Virus record (IMG/VR): IMGVR_UViG_2563366998_000008
Strand: one strand, 5' to 3'
DNA length: 39,748 bases
Origin: a virus
Lineage: Duplodnaviria; Heunggongvirae; Uroviricota; Caudoviricetes
Under the pieces are notes generated by a model. That model was given only the letters and a program-made list of their open reading frames with translations, was not told the origin of the DNA and searched no databases. The number at the start of each line of letters is the position of its first letter. Position 1 is the first letter of the stretch. A program made the translations under genes and the position numbers. This document shows positions 1 through 38,702 of this stretch, one piece after another.

Positions 1-393
1 ATGGCAAAAGTATTTACACCAGAAGAGCGGGAAGAAGTGAAGGCGCGCATTGTGGAATTCGTGCGCCTGAGCGGACGAGAAACTTTTCGACAACTGGCAG
101 ATAAAACGGGTGTCAGTAAGACCGCTATTCGTCGTTTATCTGGTGCGCTTGCGGCCAGTGGTGATGTCTGGCTCTCTGGTTGCGGGGTATTTCCATCAGA
201 GCAGGCGTATCGCGTATGGCGTAAGACACCGGAGAAGGCTGCTGACCCGACACTGATTCGAAAGTTACCTGACGGAGAAATACGTCGTTACAACAGACGG
301 CAGAACATAATTTGTCGTGAGTGCCGCCAGAGCGAAGTCATGCAGCGTGTGCTGGCGTTCTATCGGGGAAACTTTCAGGAGGTGATGGAGTGA
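1..393 (+). CDS. hypothetical early-region protein with helix-turn-helix-like segment; may be 5'-truncated by the window edge
   Basis: Open frame from ATG at position 1 to TGA 391-393; HTH-like stretch ETFRQLADKTGVSKTAIRRL; tightly packed with co-directional downstream genes. Confidence 0.4.
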   Translation: MAKVFTPEEREEVKARIVEFVRLSGRETFRQLADKTGVSKTAIRRLSGALAASGDVWLSGCGVFPSEQAYRVWRKTPEKAADPTLIRKLPDGEIRRYNRRQNIICRECRQSEVMQRVLAFYRGNFQEVME

Positions 394-686
394 GGGTGAG
401 AGTTTATATTGCCGGTCCAATGACGGGATATGAAAATTTCAACCGTGAGGCGTTTCACAAGGCGGAAGAGGAACTGAAACGGGAAGGGCATACCGTCTTA
501 AACCCGGCAGTACTTCCGGACGGGCTGACACAGCCGCACTACATGGATATTTGCATGGCAATGATTCGTTGTGTGGATGCGATTTACATGCTGAATGGCT
601 GGCAGCGGTCAGCGGGCGCTAAGGCAGAGCTGGCACTGGCGGAGAAACTGGGGCATGCGGTGATTTATCAGGAGGTGGCTCAATGA
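390..686 (+). CDS. DUF4406-like (nucleoside 2-deoxyribosyltransferase-like) phage protein
   Basis: GTG 390 preceded by AGGAGG (377-382, 7-nt spacer); N-terminal VYIAGPMTG motif typical of this family; stop overlaps the next start (ATGA). Confidence 0.55.
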   Translation: MRVRVYIAGPMTGYENFNREAFHKAEEELKREGHTVLNPAVLPDGLTQPHYMDICMAMIRCVDAIYMLNGWQRSAGAKAELALAEKLGHAVIYQEVAQ

Positions 687-3631: not shown

Positions 3632-3833
3632 ATACAGCGAACGCCATTGGTTTAGTTGGATATTTACTGTGCCGGACAAAAACGGTTTGCGGGGAAATCT
3701 TAGTTAAGTAGAATAACTGCGGGTGCTTGAGGCTATCTGTCTCAGGCATGAACACCAAAAGGCAGATAGAGAAAAGCCCCAGTTAACATTACGCGTCCTG
3801 CAAGACGCTTAACATTAATCTGAGGCCATATCT

Positions 3834-3893
3834 ATGCGACACATAGAGATTAGCCTCTTACGGACCGAAAGGTCAAGGAGAAGCAGGCTATGA
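3834..3893 (+). CDS. mok-like leader uORF translationally coupled to hok
   Basis: 19-codon ORF whose TGA (3891-3893) overlaps the hok ATG (3890-3892) as ATGA. Confidence 0.3.
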   Translation: MRHIEISLLRTERSRRSRL

Positions 3894-8478: not shown

Positions 8479-8791
8479 AGGCTTTTTTATTTGTGGTAAA
8501 TGGGCGGCTGGTGGGTGTGGTGGTTGTTGCTTTCCCGTTGCTGAAAAAGAAAACGCCAGACTGTTAGCCGGGTATCAGTTAGCGGGAGAAATTTTTAAAT
8601 ACTTCACAATTCAGGCGGTTGACTGTTGTCTGGTTTGCGGGGAGTTTGTTAAAAGAAACTGGCATGGTGAATCCCCCTGTGCGGAGGGGCAATCAGCGAG
8701 TAGGTATATGGGATAATCGCGGATTCAGGTGCTGGTACTGAATTCACCGGGAGGCACCCGGCACCATGCAATGGCACATAGCGCCACTCTC

Positions 8792-8827
8792 CAGCCCCTC
8801 TCCGGAGGGGCTGTTTATATTGATTTT
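8792..8827 (+). terminator. hairpin with T-rich tail between convergent genes
   Basis: CAGCCCCTC-TCCG-GAGGGGCTG followed by TTTATATTGATTTT. Confidence 0.4.
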
Positions 8828-20204: not shown

Positions 20205-20930
20205 GCCTGACTGATTGTGCACAGAAAACCCCCAGCTAGGCTGGGGGTTCCGGAAAGCTTTCAGCTTTGAGCCAGTTATTAAAACCCCTTTTGATTTGTT
20301 AAAACACCTTGCGGTCTGGCAACTGCAAGTGTCAAACAAGAAATCAAAAGGGGGTCCCAATGGGGAACGAAAAGAGCTTAGCGCACACCCGATGGAACTG
20401 TAAATATCACATAGTTTTTGCGCCAAAATACCGAAGACAGGTGTTCTACAGAGAGAAGCGTAGAGCAATAGGCAGTATTTTGAGAAAGCTGTGTGAGTGG
20501 AAAAGCGTACGGATTCTGGAAGCTGAATGCTGTGCAGATCATATCCATATGCTTGTGGAGATCCCGCCTAAAATGAGCGTATCCGGGTTTATGGGATATC
20601 TGAAAGGGAAAAGCAGTCTGATGCTTTACGAGCAGTTTGGTGATTTGAAATTCAAATACAGGAACAGGGAGTTCTGGTGCAGAGGGTACTACGTCGATAC
20701 AGTGGGTAAGAACACGGCGAAGATACAGGATTACATAAAGCACCAGCTTGAAGAGGATAAAATGGGAGAGCAGTTATCGATTCCCTATCCGGGCAGCCCG
20801 TTTACGGGCCGTAAGTAACGAAGTTGGATGCAAATGTCAGATCGTGTGCGCCTGTTAGGGCGCGGCTGGTAAGAGAGCCTTATAGGCGCATTTGAAAAAC
20901 CTCCGGCTATGCCGGAGGATATTTATTTTC
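20205..20930 (+). mobile_element. IS200-family insertion sequence (boundaries approximate, +/- 30 bp)
   Basis: Y1 transposase gene flanked by subterminal perfect hairpins (CCCCCAGC-TAGG-CTGGGGG near the left end; CTCCGGC-TAT-GCCGGAG near the right); enlarges the D-E gap to 769 bp. Confidence 0.75.
20360..20818 (+). CDS. tnpA: IS200/IS605-family Y1 (HUH) transposase TnpA
   Basis: MGNEKSLAHTRWNCKYHIVFAPKYRR...HIHMLVEIPPK...YLKGKSS characteristic of IS200 TnpA. Confidence 0.9.
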   Translation: MGNEKSLAHTRWNCKYHIVFAPKYRRQVFYREKRRAIGSILRKLCEWKSVRILEAECCADHIHMLVEIPPKMSVSGFMGYLKGKSSLMLYEQFGDLKFKYRNREFWCRGYYVDTVGKNTAKIQDYIKHQLEEDKMGEQLSIPYPGSPFTGRK

Positions 20931-28915: not shown

Positions 28916-29659
28916 ATGACACAGACTGAATCAGCGATTCTGGCACATGCCCGGCGGTGTGCGCCTGCGGAGTCGTGCGGCTTCGTGATAAGCACGCCGG
29001 AGGGGGAGTGGTATATCCCTTGTGTGAATATTTCCGCGGAGCCGGAGGCGTATTTTCGTATCGCACCGGAAGACTGGCTGCGGGCAGAGATGCAGGGGGA
29101 GATTGTGGCACTGGTCCACAGTCATCCCGGTGGGCTGCCCTGGCTGAGCGAGGCTGACCGGCGGCTGCAGATAAAAAGCGCACTGCCCTGGTGGCTGGTC
29201 TGCCGGGGTGACATTCACAAATTCCGCTGTGTGCCACATCTGACGGGACGGCGCTTTGAGCACGGGGTGACGGACTGTTACACGCTGTTCCGGGATGCTT
29301 ATCATCTGGCGGGGACTGAAATGCCGGATTTTCATCGCGAGGATGACTGGTGGCGCAACGGCCAGAACCTTTACCTGGACAATATGGCGGTCACCGGCTT
29401 TTACCGGGTGCCCCTGTCCTCTGCACAGGCGGGCGATATTCTGCTGTGCTGCTTTGGTGCTTCGGTACCGAACCATGCCGCCATTTACTGCGGTAACGGT
29501 GAGCTGCTTCACCATCTGCCTGAACAACTGAGTAAACGGGAGAGGTATTCCGAAAAATGGCAACGACGAACGCATTCTGTCTGGCGTCACCGCCACTGGC
29601 ACGCATCTGCCTTCACGGGGATTTACAACGATTTGGCCGCCGCCTCAGCCTGTATGTGA
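28916..29659 (+). CDS. K: tail tip assembly protein K (JAB/MPN + NlpC/P60 domains)
   Basis: ATG 28916 just after the L stop; HSHP JAMM-like motif and DCYTLF / NHAAIY NlpC/P60-like motifs; 3' end overlaps I by 103 nt. Confidence 0.85.
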   Translation: MTQTESAILAHARRCAPAESCGFVISTPEGEWYIPCVNISAEPEAYFRIAPEDWLRAEMQGEIVALVHSHPGGLPWLSEADRRLQIKSALPWWLVCRGDIHKFRCVPHLTGRRFEHGVTDCYTLFRDAYHLAGTEMPDFHREDDWWRNGQNLYLDNMAVTGFYRVPLSSAQAGDILLCCFGASVPNHAAIYCGNGELLHHLPEQLSKRERYSEKWQRRTHSVWRHRHWHASAFTGIYNDLAAASACM

Positions 29660-30237
29660 ACACGGCAGCGGAAGCCATTCGCGCCCTGTCGATGCAGATG
29701 CCGGGCTTTCGCCGTCAGATGAACGAAGGCTGGTACCAGATACGTATTGCCGGTGATGACACGGCACCGGAGGCGGTGTACGCCCGTCTTCACGAACAGC
29801 TGGGTGAGGGAACGGTCATCCACATTGTGCCGCGACTGGCCGGGGCCGGAAAGGGTGGACTGCAGATTGTGCTGGGGGCGGCAGCCATCGTGGGCTCTTT
29901 CTTCACGGCCGGTGCCTCGATGGCGTTATGGGGTACAGCCCTGAGTGCCGGCGGTTTTTCTGCCACCACAATGCTGTTTTCACTGGGTGCCAGCATGATA
30001 CTGGGCGGTGTGGCCCAGATGCTGGCCCCGAAGGCAAAAACACCGGATTACCGCGCAACGGATAACGGCAGACAGAACACGTACTTTTCCTCGCTGGATA
30101 ACATGATTGCCCAGGGGAACCCGATGCCGGTGCCTTACGGGGAAATGCTGGTTGGCTCCCGCCGTATATCCCAGGACATCAGCACCCGTGATGAAGGCGG
30201 GGGCGGAAAGGTCGTGGTTATCGGGCGGCAGGGGTAA
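29557..30237 (+). CDS. I: tail tip assembly protein I
   Basis: ATG 29557 after GGGAGAGG; N-terminus and Gly/Ala-rich hydrophobic middle match lambda gpI. Confidence 0.85.
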   Translation: MATTNAFCLASPPLARICLHGDLQRFGRRLSLYVNTAAEAIRALSMQMPGFRRQMNEGWYQIRIAGDDTAPEAVYARLHEQLGEGTVIHIVPRLAGAGKGGLQIVLGAAAIVGSFFTAGASMALWGTALSAGGFSATTMLFSLGASMILGGVAQMLAPKAKTPDYRATDNGRQNTYFSSLDNMIAQGNPMPVPYGEMLVGSRRISQDISTRDEGGGGKVVVIGRQG

Positions 30238-30243
30238 AAAGAA

Positions 30244-30283
30244 TAAAAAAATCCCGCAGTGATCGCGGACAGGAACTGCGGGA
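30244..30283 (-). terminator. rho-independent terminator oriented for the minus strand
   Basis: TCCCGCAG ... CTGCGGGA hairpin whose T-run is on the minus strand (A-run 30244-30250 on +). Confidence 0.5.
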
Positions 30284-30341
30284 GAGTTACGAAGATTAAG
30301 TGTAAGGAATTATTCTTATATCACGACAAAAAAATTAACGC
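30245..30341 (-). ncRNA. candidate small RNA (~95 nt), predicted from promoter and terminator only
   Basis: Minus-strand sigma70-like promoter (-35 TTCACA at 30370-30375, 16-bp spacer, -10 TATAAT at 30348-30353) followed ~60 nt downstream by the minus-strand terminator; no ORF in between. Confidence 0.3.
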
Positions 30342-30347
30342 AGAGAA

Positions 30348-30375
30348 ATTATACGCGCCACAGTCAGTTTGTGAA
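30348..30375 (-). promoter_or_regulatory. candidate sigma70 promoter on the minus strand
   Basis: TTCACA - 16 bp - TATAAT read on the minus strand. Confidence 0.4.
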
Positions 30376-30445
30376 AATGTGAAGATATTCAGAATTTTTA
30401 TGCCATTACCGGTTTTAACCAACAGGATTATCGGTGGGCATGAAA

Positions 30446-30482
30446 GAAAACCCCGGTATCTGCTGATACCGGGGTTTCTCTT
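30446..30482. terminator. bidirectional rho-independent terminator
   Basis: 13-bp perfect stem (30448-30460 / 30465-30477) with 4-nt loop, A-tract upstream and T-tract downstream. Confidence 0.6.
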
Positions 30483-30580
30483 TAGCATGGCAGAAATGTG
30501 TTTCATGCTTTTCGGGCGAAGGATATCCGACTTCTGTACGGAATGGCAAGTGGCGGTTAATTTATTCAGGGGAAGGCTGT

Positions 30581-33500
30581 ATGGGAAAAGGTGGCGGTAA
30601 GGCACACACGCCTCGTGAGGCGAAGGATAATCTCAAATCCACGCAGATGATGAGCGTGATTGATGCGATTGGTGAGGGACCGATAGAAGGTCCGGTGAAG
30701 GGACTGCAGAGTATCCTGGTGAACAAAACCCCGCTGACGGACACGGACGGTAATCCCGTGATACACGGTGTGACGGCGGTCTGGCGCGCCGGGGAGCAGG
30801 AGCAGACACCACCGGAAGGCTTTGAGTCCTCCGGTGCTGAAACCGGACTGGGCGTGGAAGTGACGAAGGCAAAACCGGTGACGCGCACCATTACGTCCGC
30901 GAACATTGACCGCCTGCGGGTTACCTTCGGGGTGCAGTCACTGGTGCAGACCACGTCAAAGGGCGACCGTAATCCTTCCTCTGTCCGGATTCTGATTCAG
31001 TTACAGCGTAATGGCCGCTGGGTGACGGAAAAGGATGTCACCATTAACGGCAAGACCACCTCGCAGTTCCTGGCCTCGGTGATTCTGGATAATCTGCCTC
31101 CCCGGCCCTTTAACATCCGGATGGTCAGGGAGACGGCGGACAGCACCACGGACCAGCTGCAGAATAAGACGCTGTGGTCGTCATACACCGAAATCATCGA
31201 TGTGAAACAGTGCTACCCGAACACGGCCATTGTGGGGCTGCAGGTGGATGCGGAGCAGTTCGGCGGCCAGCAGATGACGGTGAACTACCATATCCGCGGT
31301 CGCATCATCCAGGTGCCGTCAAACTATGACCCGGAAAAACGCACGTACAGTGGTATCTGGGACGGCAGTCTGAAACCGGCATACAGCAACAACCCGGCCT
31401 GGTGCCTGTGGGACATGCTGACTCACCCGCGCTACGGCATGGGAAAACGTCTGGGGGCGGCGGATGTGGACAAGTGGGCGCTGTATGCCATCGGGCAGTA
31501 CTGCGACCAGACGGTCCCGGATGGTTTCGGGGGGACCGAGCCGCGGATGACCTTTAATGCGTACCTGGCACAACAGCGTAAGGCGTGGGACGTTCTCAGT
31601 GATTTCTGCTCTGCGATGCGCTGTATGCCGGTATGGAACGGCCAGACGCTGACGTTCGTTCAGGACCGTCCGTCGGATGTGGTGTGGCCGTACACCAACA
31701 GCGATGTGGTGGTGGATGATAACGGCGTGGGTTTCCGCTACAGCTTCAGTGCCCTGAAGGACCGGCACACGGCAGTGGAGGTGAATTACACCGACCCGCA
31801 GAACGGCTGGCAGACCTCCACGGAACTGGTGGAAGACCCGGAAGCCATACTGCGCTACGGACGCAACCTGCTGAAGATGGACGCGTTCGGCTGTACCAGC
31901 CGCGGTCAGGCCCACCGTGCCGGGCTGTGGGTGATAAAGACCGAACTGCTGGAAACGCAGACGGTGGATTTCACGCTCGGGTCACAGGGGCTGCGTCACA
32001 CACCCGGTGACATCATTGAAATCTGTGATAACGACTATGCCGGGACCATGACCGGCGGACGTGTCCTGTCCATCGATGCCGCCAGCCGTACCCTGACGCT
32101 GGACCGGGAGGTGACACTGCCGGAGACCGGCACGGCCACTGTTAATCTGATTAACGGCAGCGGTAAGCCGGCGAGCGTGGCCATCACCGCACACCCCGCG
32201 CCTGACCGGATACAGGTCAGCACCCTGCCGGATGGTGTGGAGACATACGGTGTGTGGGGACTCTCCCTGCCGTCACTGCGTCGTCGCCTGTTCCGCTGTG
32301 TCTCCATCCGGGAAAACACGGACGGCACCTTTGCCATCACGGCGGTGCAGCACGTACCTGAAAAAGAAGCCATCGTGGATAACGGGGCCCGCTTTGAGCC
32401 GCAGTCAGACACCCTGAACAGCGTTATCCCACCGGCAGTGCAGCACCTGACGGTGGAGGTGAGCGCAGCTGACGGCCAGTATCTGGCGCAGGCTAAATGG
32501 GACACGCCGCGGGTGGTGAAGGGCGTGCGCTTCAGTCTGCGCCTGACCAGTGGTAAGGGAACGGATGCCAGACTGGTGACCACCGCCATCACCGCAGACA
32601 CGGAGCACCGTTTCAGCGGCCTGCCACTGGGGGAATACACCCTGACGGTGCGGGCCATTAACAGCTACGGCCAGCAGGGCGAACCTGCGACCACCACCTT
32701 CCGGATTGCCGCACCGGCAGCACCGTCGCGGATTGAGCTGACGCCGGGGTATTTTCAGATAACGGCGGTCCCGCGTCTTGCGGTGTATGACCCGACGGTA
32801 CAGTTTGAATTCTGGTTCTCAGAAAAACGCATCACGAACACGGCACAGGTGGAAAAATCTGCCCGTTATCTGGGGACCGGCAGTCAGTGGACTGTCCAGG
32901 GGAGCCGGATTAAGCCGGGGACGGATTTCTGGTTTTACGTGCGAAGCGTCAACCTGGTGGGAAAATCTGCTTTTGTGGAAGCCAGCGGGCAGCCCAGCAA
33001 TGATGGTGAAGGGTATCTGGAAATTTTCCGGGGGCTGATAGATGAGACGCTTCTGGGCCAGGCACTGAAAGAGCGCATTGATGCTTCAGCGCTGCGTACG
33101 GAGGTCACGCAACTGGAAGAAGACATCCGTCAGCGGATGGACACGGATATCGCAGAAGTGACCCGGAAAATCGGGAAGGCGGAAAACAGCCTCACGCAGC
33201 TGGTTGCGAAAAAGAATGAGGACCAGACACTGGCCATCGCGCAGGTGAGCCAGAAAGTGGACCGGGTGAGCAGTGAAATCTCACAGACTGTCAGCCAGGG
33301 GCAGTCAGAAAACGCCCGACAGATAGCACAGGTCCGCCAGTACGTGGATAAAAAAGGGAGTGAAATTACCTCGACCACGGATAAAAAGCTGGGTGACCAG
33401 GCCGTGACCATACAGCAAATCCAGCGGGTTCAGTCAGACACGCGCAATGAGCTGAATGCCATGTATATGCTGAAGGTGCAGAAAACAAAAAACGGTATTC

Positions 33501-34273
33501 CCTATGTGGCCGGGATTGGTGCGGGGATTGAGGATGTTGATGGTCAGACCCTGAGTAACATTCTGCTGCAGGCCGATCGCATTGCGATGATTACCCCGGA
33601 GAATGGCAACACCACGCCGCTGTTTGTGGCGCAGGGGAATCAGCTGTTCATGAACGACGTGTTCCTGAAGCGACTGTTTGCGGTGAGCATCACGTCATCC
33701 GGCAATCCTCCTACGTTTTCCCTGACGCCGGATGGCAGGCTGACAGCCCGCAATGCGGATATCAGTGGAGCCATCACGGCGAATACCGGCACGCTCAATA
33801 ATGTCACCATTAACGAGAACTGTGTCATCAGAGGGAAACTGTCTGCAAACCAGATTGAAGGCGATCTCGTTAAAACAGTGGGTAAGGCTTTCCCCCGTGA
33901 CTCCCGTGCACCGGAGCGTTGGCCATCAGGAACCATTACCGTCAGGGTTTATGACGATCAGCCGTTTAACCGGCAGATTGTTATTCCGGCGGTGGCTTTC
34001 AGCGGTGCCAGACATGAGCGGGAGAACAGCGATACTTATTCGTCATGCCGCCTGATAGTACGGAAAAACGGTGCTGAAATTTATAACCGTACCGCGCTGG
34101 ATAATACGCTGATTTACAGTGGTGTTATTGATATGCCTGCTGGTCGCGGCCACATGACGCTGGAGTTTTCTGTATCAGCATGGTGGGTAAATGGCTGGTA
34201 TCCCACAGCAAGTATCAGCGATTTGCTGGTTGTTGTGATGAAGAAAGCCACTGCAGGCATCACGATTAGCTGA
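30581..34273 (+). CDS. J: tail tip / host specificity protein J
   Basis: 1230-aa ORF with extensive similarity to lambda gpJ across N-terminal and central regions; ATG 30581 with GGGGAAGG RBS. Confidence 0.95.
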
Positions 34274-38118: not shown

Positions 38119-38702
38119 TGGCATTCAGAATGAGTGAACAAGCACGGACCATAAAAATTTATAATCTGCTGGCCGGAACTAATGAATTTATTGGTGAAGG
38201 TGACGCATATATTCCGCCTCATACAGGTCTGCCAGCAAACAGTACCGATATTGCACCACCAGATATTCCTGCTGGCTTTGTGGCTGTTTTCAACAGTGAT
38301 GAGGCATCGTGGCATCTCGTTGAAGACCATCGGGGGAAAACGGTTTATGACGTAGCGTCAGGGGACGAGTTATTTATTTCTGAACTCGGTCCGTTACCGG
38401 AAAATGTTACCTGGTTATCGCCGGAAGGGGAGTTTCAGAAGTGGAACGGCACAGCCTGGGTGAAGGATACGGAAGCAGAAAAACTGTTCCGGATCCGGGA
38501 GGCGGAAGAAACAAAAAACAACCTGATGCAGGTAGCCAGTGAGCATATTGCGCCGCTTCAGGATGCTGCAGATCTGGAAATTGCAACGGAGGAAGAAACC
38601 TCATTGCTGGAAGCCTGGAAAAAGTATCGGGTGTTGCTGAACCGTGTTGATACATCAACTGCACCTGATATTGAGTGGCCTACGAACCCTGTCAGGGAGT
38701 AA
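38118..38702 (+). CDS. tfa: tail fiber assembly protein (Tfa)
   Basis: 194 aa; start overlaps stf stop (TAATG); typical Tfa C-terminus. Confidence 0.9.
38538..38702 (+). repeat. tfa 3' segment, direct repeat copy A
   Basis: ~165 bp, roughly 85-90% identical by eye to 39587..39748. Confidence 0.8.

What the first reader, a model, noticed from the sequence alone, without database searches (positions are those of the whole stretch)
30238..30580. Non-lambda insert between tail genes I and J with a candidate antisense small RNA and two terminators
Seen in sequence: I and J are separated by 343 AT-rich bp (my recollection is that they are nearly adjacent in lambda). It contains no convincing protein ORF, a near-consensus sigma70 promoter on the minus strand (TTCACA-16 bp-TATAAT, 30348-30375), a minus-strand intrinsic terminator ~60 nt downstream (hairpin 30252-30283 plus U-run), and a strong bidirectional terminator (13-bp stem, 30446-30482) just before the J RBS. 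Inference: a ~95-nt prophage sRNA expressed in the lysogen, and/or a terminator insulating J from non-antiterminated transcription.
Basis: partly seen in the sequence, partly recalled or inferred. Interest (0 to 1): 0.6.

Follow-up and report, generated by a model that had tools for sequence, protein, structure and literature searches.

The report
PasB small-RNA gene between tail genes
The extra DNA between tail genes I and J carries a copy of pasB, a prophage small regulatory RNA already found by experiment in pathogenic E. coli, followed by an uncharacterised piece with a strong terminator hairpin, so the finding is real but largely known.

Summary
The I-J gap is 343 bp with 42% GC. Phage lambda has 60 bp there.

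The I-proximal half (30238-~30410) is a pasB-family small-RNA gene on the minus strand:
- promoter TTCACA-16-TATAAT
- predicted start 30341
- hairpin 30253-30282 and a U7 tail ending at 30245, giving about 97 nt

PasB of EPEC E2348/69 lies at the same I-J position on the same strand. It is 83 nt, was confirmed by Northern blot, is destabilised without Hfq, and has 37 RIL-seq partners. The window copy is a divergent allele, 74% identical, with the same promoter, 5' end and terminator. After a coordinate correction, the Hfq-bound RNAs EcOnc22/23/24 of O157 Sakai also map onto PasB homologues.

The J-proximal half (~30411-30580) is a separate mosaic module, nearly invariant in 1,446 E. coli genomes. 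It carries a 13-bp hairpin that looks like a terminator on both strands. Spacers without this module carry an unrelated plus-strand terminator at the same place, with one compensatory pair.

Verdict: a real sRNA gene of a known family, so novelty is low. The targets of this allele and the role of the terminator are unknown. Related prophages carry tandem arrays of up to four PasB-like cassettes, all sharing a conserved operator-like dyad.

The parts
30245..30341 (-). Predicted primary transcript of the pasB-family sRNA, 97 nt. The 5' end equivalent to the published PasB 5' end would be 30328, giving 84 nt.
   Evidence: Start inferred 7 nt after the -10 hexamer. The 3' end is the end of the U7 run. 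Homologous to PasB of E2348/69 at the same I-J position, 74% identity.
30348..30375 (-). Sigma-70-type promoter: -35 TTCACA (30375-30370), 16-bp spacer, -10 TATAAT (30353-30348).
   Evidence: 11 of 12 match. The core ATAAT of the -10 and the downstream CTGCGTTA are invariant in 12 homologues retrieved by BLAST, down to 75% identity.
30375..30396 (-). Operator-like dyad AATTCTGAATATCTTCACATTT (TCTGA-N6-TCACA), overlapping and upstream of the -35, centred about -44.5 from the predicted start.
   Evidence: The half-sites are invariant while the 6-nt spacer varies among homologues and among tandem cassettes. It matches 14 of 16 outer positions of the CRP consensus, which I recalled from memory. 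No factor was tested.
30245..30282 (-). Rho-independent terminator of the sRNA: stem 30275-30282 with 30253-30260, U7 tail 30251-30245.
   Evidence: The stem is conserved and the loop length varies from 4 to 16 nt among 47 variants. The stem never varies, so there is no covariation evidence.
30283..30327 (-). Single-stranded body of the sRNA: an A-rich AAG-AAU-AAU stretch, then UCCUUA and AAUCUUC, the candidate seed.
   Evidence: AUCUU is invariant and UCCUU nearly so across variants. The region is mostly unpaired in the fold. Seed function is inferred only.
30411..30580 (.). Separate mosaic module (called module B here) between the pasB promoter and J.
   Evidence: Absent from E2348/69 and many other spacers. 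At least 99% identical in 1,442 of the 1,451 matching records, which come from 1,446 E. coli genomes, whichever pasB allele sits next to it.
30448..30477 (.). 13-bp GC-rich hairpin flanked by an A-tract and a U-tract: terminator-like on both strands.
   Evidence: -32.2 and -28.7 kcal/mol, z about -7. One related locus has a clean 47-bp deletion of it between TTTCT repeats (L084).
30441..30549 (-). Speculative second minus-strand unit: weak promoter TTGCCA-18-TATCCT (30549..30520), start near 30513, ending at the hairpin's U-tail near 30441. About 72 nt.
   Evidence: Promoter matches 9 of 12. The fold is -31.9 kcal/mol, mostly from the hairpin. There is no conservation test, because the module is invariant, and no expression data.
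30566..30583 (+). J ribosome-binding region (GGGGAAGG) and ATG start codon at 30581.

Best explanation
The I-proximal half of the gap is a self-contained small-RNA gene of the PasB family, inserted antisense to the tail operon.

Host RNA polymerase with sigma-70 starts at the TTCACA/TATAAT promoter and stops at the hairpin and U7 terminator a few bases beyond the I stop codon. This gives an RNA of about 97 nt, possibly trimmed to about 84 nt. The RNA has the build of an Hfq-dependent base-pairing RNA: a U7 tail, an internal U-run, an A-rich stretch, and an unpaired UCCUUA...AAUCUUC region. It most likely acts in the lysogen by pairing with messenger RNAs made elsewhere in the genome, with the help of Hfq.

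Shown by published experiments on homologues: expression, size, dependence on Hfq, and many RNA partners. Inferred here: that this divergent allele behaves the same way, where its seed lies, and where it starts.

The J-proximal half is a different, nearly invariant module. Its 13-bp hairpin most likely acts as an intrinsic terminator. In a lysogen it would stop stray rightward transcription before J, and antiterminated late transcription would read through it. It may also stop leftward transcripts before they reach the pasB promoter.
For: - Same locus, strand and architecture as PasB of E2348/69. The I gene ends at 1466255, PasB runs 1466343->1466261 on the opposite strand, and J starts at 1466496. 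The alignment shows a shared promoter, 5' end and terminator.
- PasB was validated by Northern blot. It drops log2 -6.8 (activating condition) and -2.4 (non-activating) in a hfq deletion. It ranks 15th by RIL-seq interactions, with 37 partners including ler, perB, bfpB, bfpI, ftsZ and galE.
- O157 Sakai EcOnc22/23/24 are about 85 nt on Northern blots and destabilised without hfq. They lie in the I-J gaps of prophages Sp15, Sp14 and Sp11. With a shift of about +128 nt between sequence versions, they fall on the PasB-homologue body. The shift was calibrated on AgvB1 and on StxS/EcOnc15.
- The pasB module is found in 1,848 of 5,426 complete E. coli genomes, always between I and J in the loci inspected. 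There are 47 distinct variants that keep the terminator stem and AUCUU.
- Rfam has no family for it, and the gap has no protein-family hit.
- For the terminator: hairpin energies. Other spacers carry a non-homologous plus-strand hairpin with a T-run at the same place, 99.2% paired, with one CG/UA/UG compensatory pair.
Against: - No expression data exist for this exact allele, which differs from E2348/69 PasB in about a quarter of positions, mostly in the body where a seed would lie.
- The published 5' end, taken from RNA-seq coverage, lies 15 nt downstream of the start predicted from the promoter. So either the RNA is processed or my start is wrong.
- The terminator stem never varies, so structure is supported by conservation and loop indels only.
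- The EcOnc22-24 mapping depends on an inferred coordinate shift.
- No target of any PasB has been validated individually and no phenotype is known.
- For the module B hairpin, nothing shows on which strand it acts, if any. The module is invariant, so comparison cannot test it.
Confidence: 0.85

Rival explanations
1. PasB works mainly in cis. It is perfectly complementary to the I-J intercistronic stretch of the late tail transcript. It would pair with that transcript, from this prophage or an incoming relative with the same spacer, and trigger cleavage or block J expression. Conversely, the late transcript would soak up PasB on induction.
For: The only strong duplex partner of the RNA within the window is its own antisense strand. 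The gene always sits antisense inside the tail operon, directly after I. Alleles are swapped between otherwise identical flanks, which would fit allele-specific recognition.
Against: RIL-seq in EPEC recovered PasB mainly with RNAs made elsewhere, in lysogens where the late operon is silent. Perfect complementarity to the opposite strand is automatic for any antisense-oriented gene. No data on late mRNA processing exist.
Confidence: 0.12
2. The module B hairpin is the terminator of a second small RNA gene lying upstream of pasB on the same strand: promoter TTGCCA-18-TATCCT, start near 30513, end near 30441. The gap would then hold two tandem sRNA genes.
For: - Related prophages hold 2 to 4 tandem PasB-like cassettes in this gap.
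- The hairpin has a U-tail on the minus strand.
- A 9-of-12 promoter lies at the right distance.
- The predicted 72-nt RNA has a hairpin plus terminator build.
- The stretch after the hairpin (CCCACCGATAATCC) resembles junctions between cassettes (CCACCGATATCC).
Against: - The promoter is weak and lacks the conserved dyad and 5' GCGUUA of the cassette family.
- The similarity to the junctions is short, and MAFFT did not align it that way.
- No Hfq-CRAC peak in the Sakai list maps to such a module, although I did not establish whether Sakai carries the module.
- The module is invariant, so conservation is uninformative.
Confidence: 0.22
3. The gap is inert mosaic filler left by recombination between phages. 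The promoter and hairpins are chance matches or relics without function in this host.
For: An 11-of-12 promoter match is expected about 0.6 times per window by chance. The gap is a clear mosaic joint.
Against: Homologues are transcribed and bound by Hfq in two pathotypes. The promoter, 5' end, AUCUU and terminator are kept across alleles that differ by 25% elsewhere. The hairpin z-scores are about -7.
Confidence: 0.03
4. The gap encodes a small protein, one of the 113-, 94-, 44- or 20-aa reading frames. One phage record (ASU11) annotates such a frame as a hypothetical protein.
For: Open frames exist. One deposited phage record annotates a hypothetical protein over the region.
Against: No significant Pfam or PHROG match. 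The frames cross the module boundary and the hairpin. Homologues differ by 2-, 5- and 14-nt indels and by whole-module replacement.
Confidence: 0.02

Closest known systems
PasB (pathogenicity-associated sRNA B) of EPEC O127:H6 E2348/69, prophage PP6. Pearl Mizrahi et al. 2021, PMC8550237. Distribution survey by Zhu, Shabalina and Storz 2026, bioRxiv 10.64898/2026.05.13.724894.
   Same: - Same position (between tail genes I and J) and same antisense orientation.
- Same promoter with TATAAT, same 5' GCGUUA, same terminator CCCGCAG...CUGCGGGAU7, similar length.
- IS009 lies within 10 kb, as the survey reports for PasB flanks.
   Different: - The RNA is only 74% identical. The differences cluster in the body, including a 5-nt longer terminator loop.
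- The survey used a word size of 28 and more than 75% query coverage within Escherichia. The longest exact word I counted by eye as shared with the 83-nt query is about 24 nt, so this allele was probably not counted. That is my inference.
- E2348/69 lacks module B and has a different plus-strand terminator before J.
EcOnc22/23/24, Hfq-CRAC sRNA candidates of EHEC O157:H7 Sakai prophages Sp15, Sp14 and Sp11 (Tree et al. 2014, PMC4104026, Table S2).
   Same: They lie in I-J gaps on the strand antisense to the tail operon. They are about 85 nt on Northern blots and destabilised without hfq. The Sakai sequence is a PasB-family cassette.
   Different: The mapping onto the RNA body needs a version shift of about +128 nt that I inferred. 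The Sakai alleles differ in the body (GCAUUACUUUUUUGAUGCCUGAAAAAUAACUCCAUAACG...). Neither paper links EcOnc22-24 to PasB. Their targets are listed as unknown.
Anti-sRNAs AgvB and AsxR, and PasA/PasC/PasD: small RNAs carried as extra genes downstream of the late promoter PR' in lambdoid prophages.
   Same: Short Hfq-binding RNAs with their own promoter and terminator, carried as add-on genes in lambdoid prophages and expressed in the lysogen.
   Different: They sit at a different site (PR'/lysis region, not the tail operon) and have no sequence similarity. The Rfam AgvB and AsxR models do not hit the gap. The window does carry STnc100, a relative of PasD, at 8633-8822.
Intrinsic terminators inside Q-antiterminated late operons of lambdoid phages (established knowledge of lambda Q antitermination).
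   Same: A GC-rich hairpin plus U-tract lying within the late transcription unit. Q-modified polymerase would be expected to read through it.
   Different: Lambda itself has only 60 bp and no such element between I and J. Whether this hairpin terminates anything has not been tested.

Membership tests
PasB sRNA family | Encoded between tail assembly gene I and tail tip gene J of a lambdoid prophage, on the strand opposite the tail operon, ending just past the I stop codon. | tested here: met
   Window: I stop at 30237, RNA 3' end at 30245, J start at 30581. E2348/69: I ends at 1466255, PasB 3' end at 1466261, J starts at 1466496.
PasB sRNA family | Sequence homology to PasB of E2348/69. | tested here: met
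   The alignment shows a shared promoter, 5' GCGUUA, AUCUU and terminator. Overall 74% identity. The Northern probe matches 20 of 23 bases. It is a divergent allele, not a near-identical copy.
PasB sRNA family | Own sigma-70 promoter and Rho-independent terminator, giving an RNA of about 80-100 nt. | tested here: met
   11-of-12 promoter and hairpin plus U7 tail. Predicted length 97 nt, or 84 nt if the 5' end matches the published one.
PasB sRNA family | Expressed in the lysogen, stabilised by Hfq, and found in Hfq-mediated RNA-RNA chimeras. | not testable with these tools
   Shown only for E2348/69 and, by inference, for the Sakai homologues.
Any Rfam 15 family | Covariance-model score at or above the family's gathering threshold. 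| tested here: not met
   No hit in 30100-30700 at gathering threshold. The best sub-threshold hits score 15-20 bits against thresholds of 40-315. PasB is not in Rfam.
AgvB/AsxR anti-sRNAs | 51-60 nt with a conserved 3' 42 nt, in convergent pairs at the insertion site downstream of PR'. | tested here: not met
   Different location and no model hit.
Rho-independent terminator (hairpin 30448-30477) | Stable GC-rich stem-loop directly followed by a U-rich tract on the transcribed strand. | tested here: met
   13-bp stem, -32.2 and -28.7 kcal/mol, tails UUUCUCUUU (plus) and UUUUCUUUC (minus). Both tails are interrupted by C. Termination itself is not testable here.
Hfq class II sRNA (U-tail plus A-R-N repeats binding the distal face; Schu et al. 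2015, recalled from memory) | 3' U-tail together with internal A-R-N repeats. | tested here: inconclusive
   AAG-AAU-AAU in the window allele and AAC-AAA-AAC-AAC in E2348/69, upstream of the candidate seed, plus a U7 tail. This is a sequence pattern only.
CRP-activated promoter | TGTGA-N6-TCACA site centred at -41.5 or at -61.5 and further upstream in steps of about 10 bp. | tested here: inconclusive
   TCTGA-N6-TCACA with the half-sites conserved and the spacer variable, but centred near -44.5, and a key G is replaced in the left half-site. A Cra-like reading (TGAATA|TCTTCA) fits about as well. PasB is higher in overnight static LB than in DMEM, which is compatible with CRP control but does not single it out.

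The most novel reading that the evidence does not exclude
The I-J gap of lambdoid prophages is a dedicated growth site for a modular sRNA cassette family, of which PasB is one member. Each cassette of about 220 bp has the same operator-like dyad (TCTGA-N6-TCACA), the same promoter and 5' GCGUUA, a variable body and its own terminator. Prophages carry one to four of them in tandem, so a single host or phage factor could switch on a set of sRNAs with different seeds. In the window, module B would be a second, unrelated sRNA unit. The conserved plus-strand terminator before J would keep this lysogen-active island from driving J. None of this is in the two PasB papers, which describe PasB as a single-copy gene with few variants.
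Probability: 0.3. Interest if true: 0.5.

Novelty: already known. Interest (0 to 1): 0.22.

Why it matters
It shows that a reader working from raw sequence alone can pick out a real, experimentally supported prophage sRNA gene. For biology the gain is modest.

- PasB has no known function, and this allele is the commonest in my sample (35 of 140 pasB instances). It is present unchanged in more than 600 complete E. coli genomes, many from extraintestinal infections, including the reference strain ATCC 25922. That gives a convenient non-EPEC system for finding its targets.
- Two observations suggest the family is larger and more modular than published: the pasB module is in 1,848 of 5,426 genomes, and it occurs as tandem arrays with a shared operator-like site.
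- A terminator kept before J by non-homologous replacement hints at selection to insulate J and the downstream lysogeny-expressed genes.

Tried and rejected
- Rfam at gathering and permissive thresholds: nothing for the gap.
- AgvB/AsxR identity: rejected on location and model scores.
- Protein-coding reading of the gap: no significant Pfam or PHROG hit, and the frames are broken in homologues.
- Duplex scan of the sRNA body against both strands of the whole window. The best hit other than its own antisense strand was -34.7 kcal/mol, inside the range of shuffled queries (-31.8 to -40.6), so no target in the window stands out.
- Plus-strand promoter diverging from pasB that would use the hairpin as its terminator: none found by the scan or by eye.
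- EcOnc54 of Sakai Sp6 as a possible I-J RNA: it lies in a different inserted gene block between tail genes L and K.
- EcOnc51 as an anchor for the coordinate shift: ambiguous. It fits the PasA homologue with no shift and a second terminator-bearing unit with +128. I relied on AgvB1 and StxS instead.
- Homology of module B to junctions between cassettes: only a short motif, and MAFFT aligned it differently. Kept as a weak lead.
- Covariation in the PasB terminator: the stem is invariant, so no test was possible.
- Ascertainment caveat: the 47-variant set was fished with a pattern that fixes TTCACATTT, ATAAT and CTGC[AG]TTA. Their invariance in that set is by construction. The independent evidence is the BLAST-retrieved set.

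Full report
**1. The observation**

The window is a lambdoid prophage with its late operon on the plus strand. Gene I (29557-30237) and gene J (30581-34273) are separated by 343 bp. The gap has 41.7% GC, against 60.6% for I and 57.8% for J. In lambda the same gap is 60 bp.

The minus-strand promoter TTCACA-16-TATAAT at 30375..30348 matches 11 of 12 consensus positions. It is the only match at that stringency in the whole window. Shuffled sequence gives 0.6 such matches, so the promoter alone proves nothing.

About 60 nt downstream of the predicted start (30341) is a hairpin, CCCGCAGU/ACUGCGGG (30253-30282), followed by seven U (30251-30245). It ends 8 nt from the I stop codon.

Further towards J is a 13-bp hairpin (30448-30460 with 30465-30477). 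It folds at -32.2 and -28.7 kcal/mol on the two strands, z about -7, and has U-rich tracts on both sides.

The mechanical reading frames in the gap have no significant Pfam or PHROG match.

**2. What it is: the I-proximal half is pasB**

Rfam has no family for the gap. A literature search led to PasB, one of five prophage sRNAs found by RIL-seq in EPEC E2348/69 (PMC8550237). Table S6 of that paper places PasB on the minus strand of NC_011601.1 at 1466343->1466261, 83 nt, between E2348C_1436 and E2348C_1437. The RefSeq record shows these are the tail assembly gene I (ends 1466255) and gpJ (starts 1466496). That is the same place and the same strand as in the window.

The Northern probe AATCCCGCAGTGATCGCGGAGCT matches the window terminator at 20 of 23 bases. 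An alignment shows the promoter, the first transcribed bases (GCGUUA) and the terminator shared. The body differs, and overall identity is 74%.

In EPEC, PasB was seen on Northern blots and is stronger in overnight static LB than in DMEM. It falls by log2 -6.8 and -2.4 in a hfq deletion. It has 37 RIL-seq partners; the seven mRNA partners listed for the activating condition are bfpB, bfpI, ftsZ, galE, ler, perB and rplX.

**3. A second, older sighting**

Table S2 of Tree et al. 2014 (PMC4104026) lists EcOnc22, 23 and 24 in Sakai prophages Sp15, Sp14 and Sp11. They are homologous to each other, about 85 nt on Northern blots, and destabilised without hfq. In NC_002695.2 all three fall inside I-J gaps, on the strand antisense to the tail operon, at the same relative position.

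The 2014 coordinates refer to an older sequence version. I calibrated the shift in two ways:
- On AgvB1, located with the Rfam model, the shift is about +137.
- On StxS/EcOnc15, using the 3' end of the tR' terminator upstream of stx1A, it is +123 to +130.

With about +128, the Hfq peaks land on the body of the PasB-family RNA of these prophages. This step is an inference. With no shift, the peaks would lie upstream of the pasB promoter, where there is no terminator that could give an 85-nt RNA. A 2021 review lists the targets of EcOnc22-24 as unknown. Neither PasB paper makes the link.

**4. Distribution and conservation**

- The pasB half of the gap is in 1,848 of 5,426 complete E. coli genomes, up to nine places per genome, at 60-100% identity.
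- The exact window allele (at least 99% identity) is in 633 records, including ATCC 25922 and APEC BEN2908.
- All nine loci I fetched from this search lie between I and J.
- A pattern scan of one genome per species found it only in E. albertii and in a 460-nt contig labelled Parendozoicomonas, probably a contaminant. This agrees with the 2026 survey, which found Pas sRNAs only in Escherichia and Shigella.
- IMG/VR gave at least 120 loci.
- Among 12 homologues retrieved by BLAST, the core ATAAT of the -10, the CTGCGTTA at the start, AUCUU in the body, and the stem and U-tail of the terminator are invariant. The rest varies.
- Forty-seven distinct variants show terminator loops of 4 to 16 nt around an unchanged stem.

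That pattern fits a promoter, a terminator and a short functional core. The stem offers no covariation, and the 47-variant set was fished with a pattern that fixes three of these motifs.

The 2026 survey searched Escherichia with word size 28 and more than 75% coverage, and reports only a few nucleotide differences among PasB variants. The window allele shares no 28-nt word with the 83-nt query, so it was probably missed.

**5. How it most likely works**

The RNA has a U7 tail, an internal U-run and an A-rich stretch with A-R-N spacing (AAG-AAU-AAU). It also has a largely unpaired UCCUUA...AAUCUUC region.

This is the build of an Hfq-dependent base-pairing RNA. UCCUU is complementary to Shine-Dalgarno sequences. 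I therefore expect it to repress translation of messages made elsewhere, in the lysogen. This is inferred. No PasB target has been validated individually. A duplex scan of the window found nothing above shuffled controls except the RNA's own antisense strand.

The published 5' end lies 15 nt downstream of the start I predict, at the end of the U-run. This suggests processing or an imprecise coverage estimate.

Upstream of the -35 is a dyad, TCTGA-N6-TCACA. Its half-sites are invariant while the spacer varies. It resembles a CRP site (14 of 16 outer consensus positions, from memory) but sits near -44.5, which is not a canonical position. A Cra-like reading fits about as well. No factor is established.

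**6. The J-proximal half**

From about 30411 the window shares sequence with O157 prophages but not with E2348/69. This module is at least 99% identical in 1,442 of the 1,451 matching records, from 1,446 genomes. It stays the same whether the neighbouring pasB allele is the window type or the 82%-identical O157 type, so 30410 is a recombination joint.

Spacers without the module carry a different hairpin, CAGGCA(Y)CC...GG(R)UGCCUG, followed by UUGUUUUU on the plus strand only. It is 99.2% paired in 12 variants. One pair changes on both sides (CG, UA and a UG intermediate). Two further pairs vary to wobble (G-U or U-G) pairs that work only in the plus-strand RNA. One variant has a C-A mismatch at the loop end that would favour the minus strand instead.

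A plus-strand terminator just before J is therefore kept by two unrelated sequences.

The window hairpin also has a minus-strand U-tail, and a weak promoter (9 of 12) lies 72 nt upstream of that tail. A second minus-strand RNA is therefore possible. I give it about 0.2.

**7. Seen in related loci**

Some prophages carry two, three or four tandem PasB-like cassettes, about 220 bp each, in the I-J gap. Each has the dyad, a -10, GCGUUAC-like first bases, a variable body and its own terminator. The published survey describes PasB as single-copy per prophage.

**8. Verdict**

However, the element is a member of a family already described from experiments (PasB 2021, and probably EcOnc22-24 in 2014). 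Novelty is low. Still open are the targets and regulator of this common allele, the function of the conserved terminator before J, and the cassette arrays.

Noticed in passing
L053 (606-1530, minus), L107, L112; L106; L011 and L016: The I-J gaps of some IMG/VR prophages and of E. coli JNE170426 hold 2, 3 or 4 tandem PasB-like cassettes with a period of about 220 bp. Each has the TCTGA-N6-TCACATTT dyad, a -10, a variable body and its own terminator. Some use a different terminator (CUCCCGU...ACGGGAG), and some have a degenerate -10.
   Followed up: partly
window 30375-30396 (minus strand), and all homologues: A dyad, TCTGA-N6-TCACA, lies just upstream of and overlapping the -35. The half-sites are invariant and the spacer varies. 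It is CRP-like (or Cra-like) but centred near -44.5. It is also part of a direct repeat, TTCACA-N2-TTCACA.
   Followed up: partly
L002 3432-3462 and homologues (alignment A4): Spacers lacking module B have a plus-strand terminator before J, with a CG/UA/UG compensatory pair and a T-run on the plus strand only.
   Followed up: yes
L084 (IMG/VR), equivalent to window 30445-30491: One related locus has a clean 47-bp deletion that removes the 13-bp hairpin, flanked by the direct repeat TTTCT.
   Followed up: no
L011, L024, L112: just upstream of the J ribosome-binding site: A 7-nt unit (GACATCA on the J strand) is present in 1 to 3 tandem copies directly before the J Shine-Dalgarno sequence in the spacers that lack module B. 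Its copy number varies between loci.
   Followed up: no
window 3721-3892, 8633-8822, 20227-20350, 38461-38659: The window holds four other Rfam RNA families, all on the plus strand: sok antitoxin, STnc100 (a relative of PasD), STnc490 and IS009. IS009 is the family the 2026 survey reports as typical of PasB flanks.
   Followed up: no
L013 (NZ_FWPT01000051.1, 460 nt): A 460-nt contig in an assembly labelled Parendozoicomonas haliclonae carries a PasB-family locus identical in type to the E. coli ones. It is most likely contamination of that assembly.
   Followed up: no
L140 (Sakai NC_002695.2 2237200-2238000), positions about 385-486, plus strand: Directly downstream of the PasA homologue in Sp12 lies a second unit with a TTGACA box and a terminator (AGCCAGCG...CGCUGGCU plus a U-run). 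With the +128 shift, EcOnc51 maps on this unit rather than on PasA itself. It may correspond to the 236-nt minor PasA form.
   Followed up: partly
Sakai coordinates in PMC4104026 Table S2 compared with NC_002695.2: The published EcOnc coordinates are shifted by about +123 to +137 nt relative to the current RefSeq version between 1.94 and 2.93 Mb. Anyone mapping them onto NC_002695.2 will land next to the true features, not on them.
   Followed up: partly
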